Origin: a virus
Strand: one strand, 5' to 3'
Virus genome (UHGV): UHGV-0164982
DNA: 64,000 bases
How positions within the stretch are numbered: the stretch's first letter is position 1; every line of letters begins with the position of its first letter. Below, one piece after another: positions 48,075 through 50,233 of the stretch. The translations under genes were made by a program, and so were the position numbers. The notes under the pieces were generated by a model. The model had not been told where the DNA came from, did no database searches, and worked only from the letters and a program-made list of their open reading frames with translations.

Positions 48075-48091
48075 ATATTTATTAGAGCAAT
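48075..48091. promoter_or_regulatory. C1 operator-like site
   Basis: ATATTTATTAGAGCAAT, 16 of 17 to consensus complement. Confidence 0.65.
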
Positions 48092-48597
48092 TATTGTTGA
48101 TGGAGAAGCGCGTTTTCATACTCCCTGACCATTAACGTAAGCACGCCGTGCCTCCTGAAAACACGCGCCACTTCAATCTTATCTTCCAGCGCGAACGCAA
48201 TTTTACTTAGACCAATTTTCTTAAGGAGATCAATCTTTGCTGGACCGTCATTTCTGTCATCGGTGGCAGGACGCATAGATAGCAAAGGCTCAGCCCCATT
48301 TGTTACGTGCTTACGCAACCAGGCTCGTGTTTTATCCCTGGCTATCTCACAGCGCCCGGTTACAAACCAGAGGGTGTAAATGCCGGACAACTGGCGCACC
48401 ATATCAATAACTGGAGTGATGGGAGCATCAGTGTCACAGGCAAGGTTAAACTCGTTCCAGTGCTCTGTTAATGCACCTTTGCCAGGTGGTGGAAGTAAAT
48501 GCAGCCTGTCTTCCGTTGCCTCTGATATCGTCCCATCAATATCTACTATGACGATGTACGGACGTTCCTGGTGTGCGTGTTTATTGAAAATACTCAA
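48091..48597 (-). CDS. HAD-superfamily phosphatase-like protein
   Basis: 168 aa; VDIDGT DxDGT motif near N-terminus. Confidence 0.55.
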   Translation of the reverse strand: MSIFNKHAHQERPYIVIVDIDGTISEATEDRLHLLPPPGKGALTEHWNEFNLACDTDAPITPVIDMVRQLSGIYTLWFVTGRCEIARDKTRAWLRKHVTNGAEPLLSMRPATDDRNDGPAKIDLLKKIGLSKIAFALEDKIEVARVFRRHGVLTLMVREYENALLHQQ

Positions 48598-48669
48598 ATG
48601 CCCTCCTCATTGGACGAAAAAAATGCTGGTGGGAGCACTCCACCAGCATTAAAAGTGACACTGTAACTA

Positions 48670-49932
48670 TCAGCGAACGTAAATAGTGCCGCCGTTCTCT
48701 TTTTCCCATGCATCGCTACGTGCATAGCAAACATCGAGAAGTCTTCTTGCCGCAGTTTCCTCTAAACCCAATTCGACAACCAACTGCTCATGACGGCGGG
48801 TAACCACATCAAACAGGGTATGCAGCCCTTTAGTTGCCAGATCATCAATGAATTCCGGTTCGAACGGCAGCTCTGCATCTGCCAACATAACCTCTTGCGC
48901 CCACTCGACACGGCGGACCAGTTCCGGGCGGCGGCTTTCCATCTCTTTACAGATCAATTCATGGAAGAACTCTACCCAACCTTCCGGCTGGAACTCGCGG
49001 AAAATTGCCAACGGCTGGAAGTTTGGCATCAACCATTCGTTGATTCGGATATCAATGGCGTAGCCCATGTCGCAGCAGAACTGATAAGCAAAGTCCAGCT
49101 TAGAAACGATATAAGGACGCTCGTTATTGAACTCTTTAGGCGATGAGATCCCATAAGCCAGGAGACGCGGGAAGAAGGAGATTTGCCCTAACGTCGGATG
49201 AAGTTTGCTTGCAGGGAAACGGTGCTCAGTAATGCCATACATTTCCTTCTTGAGCGTCGCAAATTTGGCATTCTCATTAACCAGCGCGGTAACCTCTGCT
49301 TTTTTATTAGCAAATGCCACGCGCGCCTCGCTTGCATCTTTAATAGTTTTTTTGAGCTGTTGGTTAAGGTCGGCGACCTGCTTACGCAGTTCCTGTCGCT
49401 CGCTTTTAGCTTTGTTATAGCGTTTCTCAAGGTTAAAAGGATCAAGTTTCATGATCTCTTTATATTGAGATTTTAGCGTTGAAATCTGTGAGTTCCGCAG
49501 TTCAACCATCGCGGTCATTTCATTGAGTTTTGTTTCCAGCTCAATGCTTATACGTTCGGCATTATCAGCACGCTGGTTGGCGTCATGCGTCGCATCGTCG
49601 ATCGCGTCCTGTTGCTGGCGTTTCAAATGTTCAATTTCCAGCTGAAGCTCTTCAATTTCTTTACCCTTCAGACCGAGATCCAACTGCATATTTTCAGCTG
49701 CATCTACCAGGGAGTTATGGCTATCAGCTTCTGCGTTATAAACATCAATAAGCTGTGCGTGAAGCATCTCCGCTGACTGAACCGCATTATCAAAAAAACG
49801 CGCTGTGAGGTCATCACAACTAACGCGGCGTTGCGCGGCCCGGATGTTCTGGATAATGGCCGGGATACCGGCATTCAGGACGTCAGGGATAGATACATTT
49901 TCGATTGATTGGTTTTGTGCTGAAGTGCTCAT
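48670..49932 (-). CDS. coiled-coil protein with conserved C-terminal domain
   Basis: 420 aa; long N-terminal coiled coil; sits behind two C1 operator-like sites. Confidence 0.55.
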   Translation of the reverse strand: MSTSAQNQSIENVSIPDVLNAGIPAIIQNIRAAQRRVSCDDLTARFFDNAVQSAEMLHAQLIDVYNAEADSHNSLVDAAENMQLDLGLKGKEIEELQLEIEHLKRQQQDAIDDATHDANQRADNAERISIELETKLNEMTAMVELRNSQISTLKSQYKEIMKLDPFNLEKRYNKAKSERQELRKQVADLNQQLKKTIKDASEARVAFANKKAEVTALVNENAKFATLKKEMYGITEHRFPASKLHPTLGQISFFPRLLAYGISSPKEFNNERPYIVSKLDFAYQFCCDMGYAIDIRINEWLMPNFQPLAIFREFQPEGWVEFFHELICKEMESRRPELVRRVEWAQEVMLADAELPFEPEFIDDLATKGLHTLFDVVTRRHEQLVVELGLEETAARRLLDVCYARSDAWEKENGGTIYVR

Positions 49933-50165
49933 TTCAAAGTTCCGTATTAGCTTGTGCTTCGGTCATTTTTCCTAAGTATGAAGGAGGAAGGACTACGCAA
50001 TTTGTATCCAGTCCCTCACCTATGGCAGCCTGTAAAATTCTGGCTAAGGTGAGTCTCTTGTTGCGATACCTGGTGATGACATGCCTGATACCGCCGGTCG
50101 GCGTAACAAAGGCGATCAGCCAGTAGTGATATTTCCGTCGGAATGGCCACATAGTGCACCTTGTA

Positions 50166-50182
50166 GATTGCTCTAATAAAAA
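50166..50182. promoter_or_regulatory. C1 operator-like site (left of inverted pair)
   Basis: ATTGCTCTAATAAAAAA, 14 of 17. Confidence 0.5.
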
Positions 50183-50214
50183 ACGTGATGAGTGTACATC
50201 ACGTTTTAAAAATA

Positions 50215-50231
50215 TGGAATTATTAGAGCAA
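50215..50231. promoter_or_regulatory. C1 operator-like site (right of inverted pair)
   Basis: GGAATTATTAGAGCAAT, 14 of 17; pair flanks CGTGATG-AGTGTA-CATCACG palindrome. Confidence 0.5.
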
Positions 50232-50233
50232 TA

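What the first reader, a model, noticed from the sequence alone, without database searches (positions are those of the whole stretch)
48075..50233. Inverted pair of C1 operator-like sites flanking a palindrome, controlling a 420-aa coiled-coil protein and a HAD phosphatase
Two operator-like 17-mers in opposite orientation bracket CGTGATG-AGTGTA-CATCACG just upstream of the 420-aa gene. A third operator-like site overlaps the HAD gene stop and heads the next operon. This suggests tightly repressed early functions, possibly with DNA looping, whose products are unassigned.
Basis: partly seen in the sequence, partly recalled or inferred. Interest (0 to 1): 0.4.

Follow-up and report, generated by a model that had tools for sequence, protein, structure and literature searches.

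The report
Known P1 repressor operators Op86/Op88
The three 17-base sites are the already catalogued C1-repressor operators Op86a, Op86b and Op88 of a P1-type phage-plasmid, so the finding is real but ordinary; the palindrome between two of them probably encodes a small transcription terminator that overlaps the promoter.

Summary
The three 17-mers and the palindrome sit exactly where stated, against 0.38 chance matches per window. The window is a P1-like phage-plasmid, 98-99% identical to P1, P7 and JL22, and it encodes C1 itself. The P1 and P7 GenBank records already annotate the sites at the homologous positions as OpmgRa/Op86a, OpmgRb/Op86b and OpmgT/Op88, so the finding is already known.

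Corrections:
It is essential for head-tail joining. The 420-aa gene is pmgS.
- A strong, conserved intrinsic terminator separates pmgS from the HAD gene pap, so pap can only be reached by read-through.
- Nothing supports DNA looping.

Additions from six distinct sequences of diverged relatives (three or four lineages):
- The operator-hairpin-operator span is always 66 bp.
- The palindrome covaries as a sense-strand RNA hairpin. Its U-tract is the A-rich tail of the inverted Op86b, which suggests a terminator for the upstream operon that overlaps the pmgR promoter. This is inferred.
- The hairpin loop is always TAnnnT, a possible -10.
- PmgS models as a long coiled coil, a beta domain and a C-terminal (HhH)2 domain.

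Interest is low.

The parts
50216..50232 (-). C1 operator Op86a (OpmgRa), ATTGCTCTAATAATTCC. It starts 1 nt after the pmgQ stop codon and contains the predicted -35 TTGCTC of PpmgR (50231-50226).
   Evidence: 3 mismatches. Annotated as a protein_bind feature for phage repressor C1 at the homologous position in P1 and P7. The core is invariant in diverged relatives.
50180..50207 (-). Palindrome, read as an RNA hairpin on the gene (sense) strand. Arms are 50207-50197 and 50190-50180, the core 7 bp is CGUGAUG/CAUCACG, and the loop UACACU lies at 50196-50191. It is a probable intrinsic terminator stem for transcripts arriving from pmgQ. The loop TAnnnT is an alternative -10. The P1-annotated -10 TAAAAC lies at 50208-50203.
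   Evidence: -13.4 kcal/mol, z = -5.4. (97.3% of cells paired, 4 pairs with changes on both sides). (73/75 cells paired on the sense strand against 66/75 on the antisense strand). (loop positions T, A and final T are invariant).
50167..50183 (+). C1 operator Op86b (OpmgRb), ATTGCTCTAATAAAAAA, inverted relative to Op86a. On the sense strand its A-rich tail reads UUUUUU (50183-50178) directly after the hairpin.
   Evidence: Annotated in P1 and P7. All three mismatches to the consensus are at positions 15-17 and turn AAATTT into TTTTTT on the sense strand (direct reading). Conserved in relatives.
49934..50152 (-). pmgR (72 aa), the first gene of the operator-controlled unit. It is essential, and its deletion gives unjoined heads and tails.
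   Evidence: ORF. phrog_3177, 4e-47. P1 annotation. PMC9024508. A 36%-identical homologue is linked to a pmgS-like gene in distant element L007.
48670..49932 (-). pmgS (420 aa), nonessential. The model shows a long helical coiled-coil hairpin (about residues 41-232), a small beta domain (about 242-300) and a C-terminal (HhH)2 domain (about 355-412).
48612..48650 (-). Intrinsic terminator between pmgS and pap: AAUGCUGGUGG-AGUGCUC-CCACCAGCAUU followed by UUUUUCG. The pap Shine-Dalgarno GAGGAGG and TTG start follow within about 20 nt.
   Evidence: The stem is conserved with substitutions that keep pairing in JK004 and L011/L012.
48091..48597 (-). pap (168 aa, TTG start), a PNKP-type HAD phosphatase domain with DIDGT as motif I and no kinase domain.
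   Evidence: Pfam HAD_PNKP, 2e-11, 44.7 bits against a cutoff of 27.6. phrog_415, 1e-55. P1 and P7 annotate it as Pap. It is absent from relatives L006, L013 and L014, where the Op88-like operator follows pmgS directly.
48075..48091 (-). C1 operator Op88 (OpmgT in P1, Op(hea) in P7), ATTGCTCTAATAAATAT. It overlaps the pap stop codon by 1 nt and carries the predicted -35 TTGCTC. The predicted -10 TAAAAC lies at 48067-48062.
   Evidence: 1 mismatch.. An equivalent site is present in JK004. The string ATTTTTAAAAC occurs at the same offset after both Op86a and Op88.
47906..48042 (-). Start of the Op88-controlled unit. It contains a structured 5' leader hairpin (48042-48020), the motif CAATCAATCA, a Shine-Dalgarno sequence and a roughly 28-aa hydrophobic peptide ORF (ATG at 47992). 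A 195-aa gene of P7 type (upf86.8-like) follows.
   Evidence: A hairpin of different sequence sits at the same place in JK004 and L006. Downstream the window matches P7 rather than P1 pmgT.
32808..33659 (+). c1, the gene for the repressor that recognises these operators (the trans-acting part).
   Evidence: tblastn gives 98.9% identity over 283 aa to P1 C1. ORF.

Best explanation
This is the Op86a/Op86b-pmgR-pmgS-(pap)-Op88 segment of a P1-type phage-plasmid, a regulatory node that is already catalogued.

In the lysogen, monomeric C1 repressor, encoded in the same window, binds the asymmetric 17-bp operators.
- Op86a and the inverted Op86b bracket the promoter of the pmgR-pmgS unit and shut it off.
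- Op88, which abuts the pap stop codon, shuts off the next unit.
That these are C1 operators is taken from the database annotation and is consistent with the sequence.

Inferred here: the palindrome between Op86a and Op86b is not a protein site. It encodes an RNA hairpin on the gene strand.
- With the U6 run supplied by the A-rich tail of the inverted Op86b, it forms an intrinsic terminator.
- That terminator would stop transcripts arriving from the upstream pmgL/pmgN-ppp-pmgQ operon.
- Transcripts that start at the pmgR promoter begin inside or just after the hairpin and so escape it.
- The -10 of that promoter is either TAAAAC at the 5' foot of the stem (the P1 annotation) or the invariant TAnnnT hairpin loop.

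A second conserved terminator after pmgS means pap is reached only by read-through.

Products:
- PmgR is a small essential head-tail joining factor.
- PmgS is a nonessential protein with a coiled coil and an (HhH)2 domain, probably associated with DNA or with other proteins.
- Pap is a PNKP-like 3'-phosphatase domain.
For: Identity of the region:
- It is 98-99% identical to P1, P7, JL22 and SJ46, and 687 plasmid records carry it.
- The operators are annotated at exactly the homologous coordinates in AF234172 and AF503408, with the former names Op86a, Op86b and Op88.
- The consensus match is far above chance, and c1 is in the window.

Operators in diverged relatives (PmgS 53-71% identical):
- The operator cores are invariant while the flanking sequence drifts.
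- L011/L012 carry the same C-to-T change in both Op-a and Op-b.
- The outer span is 66 bp in all 7 distinct sequences, despite compensating indels.

Hairpin:
- 97.3% of cells are paired, and 4 of 11 pairs have changes on both sides.
- Pairing is better on the sense strand (73/75) than on the antisense strand (66/75), because G.U pairs only work on the sense strand.
- The hairpin is followed by U5-6 in 5 of the 7 distinct sequences.
- The three consensus mismatches of Op86b are exactly the bases that make the U-tract.

Upstream transcription that would need stopping: the P1 record places late promoter LPpmgL and PpmgN/Op83 upstream, on the same strand.

Terminator after pmgS.

A distant element, L007, keeps pmgR-like and pmgS-like genes behind its own perfect inverted 15-mer pair, with a hairpin after them.

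Gene functions.
Against: - C1 binding to these particular sites was not tested here. I could not open the primary papers or the P1 genome paper, so the evidence for binding rests on the GenBank notes.
- The promoter is only predicted, in the P1 record as well.
- In the L004/L005/L008 lineage the run after the hairpin is AUCUUGAUU, a poor U-tract, so termination may be weak there or may not be the conserved function.
- The simple terminator scan did not list the hairpin. I think it extends the stem through the A/U pairs and then finds too few T residues, but that is my reading of its rule.
- Covariation rests on only 3-4 independent lineages.
- None of the features listed in the three stretches of the P1 record I read (about 17 kb) is a terminator, either at this site or elsewhere.
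Confidence: 0.85

Rival explanations
1. The hairpin loop, not TAAAAC, is the -10 of the pmgR promoter. Transcription would start at about 50183-50184, at the edge of Op86b. Op86a would then overlap the -35 and Op86b the start site, so the two operators clamp a promoter that sits physically inside a terminator hairpin. This is a variant of the best explanation rather than a contradiction of it.
For: - Loop positions 1, 2 and 6 (T, A, T) are invariant across all relatives, while positions 3-5 vary: TACACT, TATCAT, TATTAT.
- Good partner -35 hexamers lie 16 nt upstream in the relatives: TTTACT in JK004 and L011, and TTGATT in L004 (direct reading).
- The TAAAAC hexamer of the P1 annotation is not conserved. 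It reads TGAAGC in JK004 and L011, and TAAAGG in L004.
Against: - In the window and in P1 the -35 partner is poor (TCCATA) and the loop matches TATAAT at only 4 of 6 positions.
- The string ATTTTTAAAAC recurs at the same offset after Op88, which favours TAAAAC as a functional element.
- There are few independent lineages and no start-site data.
Confidence: 0.4
2. The two inverted operators cooperate through C1-mediated DNA looping or bending of the 32-bp segment between them. The palindrome would be incidental, or would help the DNA deform.
For: - The Op-a to Op-b span is constant at 66 bp in all relatives, despite an insertion and a deletion in the L004 group.
- From memory, and not verified here: C1-mediated looping has been reported for the c1 control region of P1.
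Against: - The sites are 49 bp apart centre to centre, a very short and stiff segment for a loop between monomer-bound sites.
- The fixed spacing is equally explained by the need to fit a promoter and a hairpin between the two sites.
- The palindrome shows RNA-type covariation with sense-strand G.U pairs, which DNA bending would not select.
- A literature search found nothing on looping at Op86.
Confidence: 0.1
3. The palindrome is the binding site of a dimeric DNA-binding protein, phage- or host-encoded, that co-regulates the pmgR promoter together with C1.
For: It is a perfect 7-11 bp inverted repeat with a 6-bp centre, placed over the promoter.
Against: - The arm sequences are not conserved. 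Three of the seven core pairs change on both sides and a fourth becomes a wobble, so pairing is kept rather than sequence.
- The sequence is not repeated elsewhere as a motif in the window.
- G.U-type substitutions favour selection at the RNA level.
Confidence: 0.05

Closest known systems
Bacteriophage P1 operators OpmgRa/OpmgRb (former Op86a/Op86b) and OpmgT (former Op88), GenBank AF234172 / NC_005856
   Same: The positions are the same relative to pmgQ, pmgR, pap and the downstream unit. The region is 98.2% identical, and in the alignment the P1 and window rows are identical across both operators of the pair and the palindrome.
   Different: Nothing differs within the finding itself. Downstream of Op88 the window carries the P7-type genes (upf86.8-like) instead of P1 pmgT/U/V.
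Phage P7 Op(sht[a]), Op(sht[b]) and Op(hea), with the shtA-shtB-pap genes (AF503408)
   Same: The layout is identical and the sequence is 98.1% identical, including the genes after the third operator.
   Different: Only the names differ. P7 labels the genes 'sheath' functions, which does not fit the later P1 deletion data: pmgR deletion leaves heads and tails unjoined, and pmgS is nonessential.
Rho-independent (intrinsic) terminators that overlap a downstream promoter
   Same: There is a short G+C-containing stem, a 6-nt loop and a U6 tail on the sense strand at the end of an operon. The stem covaries in relatives.
   Different: The U-tract doubles as the tail of a repressor operator, and the stem-loop overlaps the -10 region of the next promoter. 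Termination itself was not measured.
RAD51/RadA N-terminal, RNA polymerase alpha-CTD and NusA-AR (HhH)2 domains (for the PmgS C-terminus)
   Different: The domain is attached to a roughly 190-residue coiled coil and a beta domain with no detectable relatives. The window's own PmgS does not reach the Pfam threshold, and there is no recombinase or polymerase core.

Membership tests
P1-type C1 repressor operator | Asymmetric 17-bp site matching ATTGCTCTAATAAATTT | tested here: met
   The three sites have 1, 3 and 3 mismatches, and positions 1-13 (ATTGCTCTAATAA) are intact in all three. The window has 15 matches against 0.38 expected. The consensus is quoted in PMC8546580.
P1-type C1 repressor operator | The cognate C1 repressor is encoded by the same element | tested here: met
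   c1 lies at 32808-33656 and is 98.9% identical to P1 C1.
P1-type C1 repressor operator | Homologous in position to catalogued operators of P1 and P7 | tested here: met
   The coordinates map one-to-one onto the protein_bind features OpmgRa, OpmgRb and OpmgT in P1, and Op(sht[a]), Op(sht[b]) and Op(hea) in P7.
P1-type C1 repressor operator | Physical binding by C1, and repression in the lysogen | not testable with these tools
   This rests on the GenBank notes that cite earlier entries (M25414 and X98146 for Op88). The primary papers and the P1 genome paper are not in the held library.
P1-type C1 repressor operator | Conserved under divergence, as expected for a functional site | tested here: met
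   The operator cores are invariant in relatives whose PmgS is 53-71% identical. L011/L012 carry a matching C-to-T change in both sites.
Intrinsic (Rho-independent) terminator (palindrome 50180-50207) | Stable stem-loop directly followed by a U-rich tract on the transcribed strand | tested here: met
   Folding gives -13.4 kcal/mol with 7 core pairs and 4 A-U pairs, followed by UUUUUUAUUA. The U-tract is weak in the L004 group. The simple scanner did not list the hairpin.
Intrinsic (Rho-independent) terminator (palindrome 50180-50207) | Structure maintained by compensatory change on the sense strand | tested here: met
   97.3% of cells are paired, 4 pairs change on both sides, and 0 of 500 shuffles reach the observed covariation score. 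Pairing is 73/75 on the sense strand against 66/75 on the antisense strand. Only 3-4 independent lineages are available.
Intrinsic (Rho-independent) terminator (palindrome 50180-50207) | RNA 3' ends are generated at the site | not testable with these tools
   No Term-seq or 3'-end data were available.
C1-mediated DNA looping | Two operators interact through bound C1 so that the intervening DNA loops out | tested here: inconclusive
   Only geometry could be examined. The centres are 49 bp apart and the outer span of 66 bp is conserved. No binding or imaging data exist, and the literature search found nothing.
HAD superfamily, PNKP-type phosphatase (Pap) | Match to the HAD_PNKP profile above its curated cutoff, and the DxDxT motif I | tested here: met
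   PF25109 scores 44.7 bits against a cutoff of 27.6. The translation reads DIDGT at residues 19-23. phrog_415 'polynucleotide kinase' scores 1e-55. There is no kinase domain, since the protein is only 168 aa.
PmgS family (PHROG 1660) | Full-length match to the family profile | tested here: met
   3.1e-195 over residues 1-420. About 120 clusters at 50% identity are found in 1.84 billion representatives.
(HhH)2 domain (PmgS C-terminus) | Sequence-profile match to HHH_5 or RNA_pol_A_CTD | tested here: inconclusive
   The window's PmgS has no Pfam hit at E <= 0.01 apart from a coiled-coil match. Homologue P0029 passes the HHH_5 cutoff (32 bits against 27), and 11 of 65 family members hit HHH_5.
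(HhH)2 domain (PmgS C-terminus) | Fold match to solved (HhH)2 domains | tested here: met

The most novel reading that the evidence does not exclude
The 66-bp Op86a-hairpin-Op86b cassette may be a conserved, compact 'insulator'. In it an intrinsic terminator for the upstream, partly late operon is nested inside a C1-clamped promoter. The -10 would lie in the hairpin loop, and the operator's A-tail would serve as the terminator's U-tract. C1 occupancy of Op86b could then also affect termination or act as a roadblock to read-through. This dual-use design has not, to my knowledge, been described for P1.
Probability: 0.3. Interest if true: 0.3.

Novelty: already known. Interest (0 to 1): 0.12.

Why it matters
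Little changes. The sites are textbook P1 immunity-regulon operators and have been annotated in GenBank since the P1 and P7 genome records were deposited.

The modest value lies in four details:
- The missed gene pmgR is corrected.
- pap is shown to sit behind a terminator and to be a variable cargo gene.
- There is a testable explanation for the palindrome: a terminator overlapping the promoter, sharing bases with Op86b.
- PmgS gets a first structural hint, a coiled coil plus an (HhH)2 domain. It remains an uncharacterised, nonessential gene, found here in 687 plasmid records.

Tried and rejected
- The P1 genome paper (PMC523184) is not in the held library. Its operator and terminator tables could not be read, so I relied on the GenBank feature notes.
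- Full-text searches for Op86/Op88/Op72 returned only unrelated papers. A search for C1 looping, Bof and Lxc returned nothing on Op86.
- The P1vir RNA-seq papers give no start-site or per-operon data for this locus.
- Rfam finds no known RNA family in 47.8-50.4 kb.
- PADLOC gives only coiled-coil-type LmuB matches for PmgS, at about 1e-4. I treat these as composition artefacts.
- A profile search of PDB sequences with the PmgS alignment gave only weak coiled-coil and HhH hits. Foldseek found no match at E <= 0.001 for the full-length model. The beta domain at about residues 242-300 stays unmatched.
- I looked for a plus-strand promoter driven by Op86b. No -10-like hexamer lies 16-18 nt after its TTGCTC, so I rejected it (direct reading).
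- I considered whether the hairpin at 48020-48042 is a plus-strand terminator. I rejected this because relatives keep the hairpin but not the plus-strand T-run.
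Full report
**What the window is.** The finding region is 98-99% identical to phage P1, P7, JL22, SJ46 and RCS47. A 401-bp piece spanning the operator pair occurs in 687 plasmid records, mostly from Escherichia and Salmonella. The window is therefore a P1-type phage-plasmid. It also encodes the C1 repressor at 32808-33656 (+), 98.9% identical to P1 C1.

**Checking the observation.**
- The published C1 operator consensus is ATTGCTCTAATAAATTT (quoted in PMC8546580).
- It matches at 48075-48091 (-) with 1 mismatch, at 50167-50183 (+) with 3, and at 50216-50232 (-) with 3.
- The window has 15 such matches, against 0.38 expected from shuffles.
- The two inverted sites share 13-nt perfectly complementary arms. 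They enclose a perfect palindrome with 11-nt arms (50180-50190 and 50197-50207).
- The third site overlaps the pap stop codon by one base.
One error remains: a 72-aa ORF lies between the pair and the 420-aa gene.

**It is already annotated.** Window coordinates equal L001 locus coordinates plus 45399. On that mapping the three sites coincide exactly with protein_bind features for phage repressor C1 in the P1 record AF234172:
- OpmgRa (former Op86a, 'controls expression of pmgR and pmgS').
- OpmgRb (former Op86b).
- OpmgT (former Op88, with cross-references to the earlier entries M25414 and X98146).

The P7 record names them Op(sht[a]), Op(sht[b]) and Op(hea).

The genes, all on the minus strand, are:
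- pmgQ, 50234-50935.
- pmgR, 49934-50152.
- pmgS, 48670-49932.
- pap, 48091-48597.

The P1 record predicts a promoter PpmgR. Its -35 TTGCTC lies inside Op86a (50231-50226) and its -10 TAAAAC at 50208-50203. It predicts PpmgT promoters at Op88.

Published work adds function:
- pmgS and pap are nonessential (PMC10695390).

I could not open the P1 genome paper or the 1980s operator papers. That C1 physically binds these sites therefore rests on the database notes.

**What the palindrome is.** I collected relatives whose PmgS is 53-71% identical:
- Cronobacter phage JK004.
- Salmonella and other contigs L004, L005, L006, L008, L011, L012, L013 and L014.

I aligned the pmgQ-pmgR spacers, with these results:
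- The order is conserved: Op-a, then an AT-rich spacer, then the hairpin, then a T-run joined to the inverted Op-b.
- The outer span is 66 bp in all seven distinct sequences. The L004 group has one inserted and one deleted base that cancel out.
- The operator cores are invariant. L011/L012 carry the same C-to-T change in both sites.
- The stem sequence is not conserved, but pairing is. 97.3% of cells pair, and four pairs change on both sides (for example C-G to U-A, G-C to A-U, A-U to G-C). None of 500 shuffles reaches the observed covariation score.
- Several substitutions give G.U pairs, which work only on the gene strand: 73/75 cells pair on the sense strand against 66/75 on the antisense strand.

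This pattern points to an RNA hairpin in sense transcripts. It argues against a protein-binding palindrome or a DNA cruciform.

On that strand the hairpin (-13.4 kcal/mol, z = -5.4) is followed by UUUUUU. These six bases are the tail of the inverted Op86b. The three positions where Op86b departs from the consensus are exactly those that turn AAATTT into TTTTTT.

The P1 record places the late promoter LPpmgL and PpmgN/Op83 upstream on the same strand. Transcripts therefore do arrive from pmgQ.

My reading is that the hairpin is an intrinsic terminator that insulates the pmgR unit from the upstream operon. This is inferred, not shown. Caveats:
- The U-tract is poor in the L004 lineage.
- Only 3-4 independent lineages are available.
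- The simple terminator scanner did not report the hairpin.
- None of the features listed in the parts of the P1 record I read is a terminator.

**Where the promoter is.** With the annotated -10 (TAAAAC), transcription would start at about 50196, in the hairpin loop. Transcripts from this promoter would lack the 5' arm and would escape termination.
- In favour of TAAAAC: the string ATTTTTAAAAC recurs at the same offset after Op88.
- Against it: TAAAAC is not conserved in relatives, reading TGAAGC or TAAAGG.
- In favour of the loop: it is always TAnnnT (TACACT, TATCAT, TATTAT). It has reasonable -35 partners 16 nt upstream in relatives: TTTACT in JK004 and L011, and TTGATT in L004.

The loop may therefore be the real -10, with a start at about 50184. 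Op86a would then cover the -35 and Op86b the start site. Either way the two operators clamp the promoter. Only start-site mapping can decide.

**DNA looping.** The sites are 49 bp apart centre to centre. The conserved spacing is explained by the need to house a promoter and a hairpin. I found no evidence for looping here and rate it unlikely.

**The link to pap.**
- An 11-bp-stem hairpin followed by a U-run lies between pmgS and pap (48650-48622). It is followed within about 20 nt by the pap Shine-Dalgarno sequence and TTG start.
- The stem is conserved, with pairing-preserving changes, in JK004 and L011/L012.
- There is no room for a promoter after it, so pap can be expressed only by read-through.
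- pap is absent in L006, L013 and L014, where the Op88-like operator follows pmgS directly.
- So the claim that the pair controls both the 420-aa protein and the HAD phosphatase is only partly right.

**The proteins.**
- Pap matches Pfam HAD_PNKP above its cutoff and carries DIDGT. It has no kinase domain.
- PmgS belongs to a modest family of about 120 clusters at 50% identity.
- An AlphaFold model built on 65 sequences has mean pLDDT 87. It shows helices 41-160 and 168-232 forming a long coiled-coil hairpin, a small beta domain, and a C-terminal helical domain.
- HHH_5 or RNA_pol_A_CTD is detected in 9-11 of 65 family members, but not in the window's own sequence at threshold.
- A distant element, L007, keeps a pmgR-like gene (36% identical) immediately before a pmgS-like gene (27% identical). 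They sit behind a perfect inverted pair of a different 15-mer, and a hairpin follows them. This suggests an old, repressor-controlled two-gene module.

**Verdict.** The small additions are the terminator reading of the palindrome, the loop -10 alternative, the terminator before pap, and the (HhH)2 domain of PmgS. All are inferences that need RNA-end mapping and binding assays. Interest is low.

Noticed in passing
window 33660-35390: About 1.7 kb lies between c1 and pacB that P1 itself lacks. It is a second immI-like cassette on the minus strand. It holds a C1 operator-like site (35365-35381), an isrK-like sRNA (35212-35290), a C4 antisense RNA (35080-35167), a 73-aa ORF (34804-35025) and a 371-aa ORF6N+KilAC antirepressor (33692-34807). 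RCS47 and 673R5 match over the full length (93% and 90% identity) and JL22 over 91% of it (95.5% identity).
   Followed up: partly
window 47906-48060: Downstream of Op88 there is a stable leader hairpin (48020-48042). It is conserved in position but not in sequence in JK004 and L006. It is followed by the conserved motif CAATCAATCA, a Shine-Dalgarno sequence and a roughly 28-aa hydrophobic peptide ORF (ATG at 47992). The P1 record notes that this stretch also occurs downstream of E. coli hsd loci.
   Followed up: partly
window 44167-47805, against P1 and P7: After Op88 the window follows P7 (upf86.8-like 195-aa gene at 47309-47896) rather than P1 pmgT/U/V. Parts of 44.5-47.3 kb match neither the P1 nor the P7 stretch I fetched. 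This is a variable cargo region, and its ORFs share repeated 'TDAFLAEVRA' segments.
   Followed up: no
L011/L012 2690-2770: In one Salmonella lineage both operators of the pair read TTGTTCTAAT instead of TTGCTCTAAT. The matched change hints at a C1 variant with shifted specificity.
   Followed up: no
L007 4700-4755: A distant pmgR/pmgS-carrying element has a perfect inverted pair of AAGATACTAATTTAT, 17 bp apart, in front of the two genes. A third, weaker copy lies at 1354-1368 inside the HTH_3 gene (1202-1444). This is possibly the operator set of a different repressor.
   Followed up: partly
window 63881-63908: Two overlapping inverted C1 operator matches, with 2 and 0 mismatches, form a bivalent operator at the window edge. 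This is the arrangement P1 annotates for bivalent operators such as Oc1ab.
   Followed up: no
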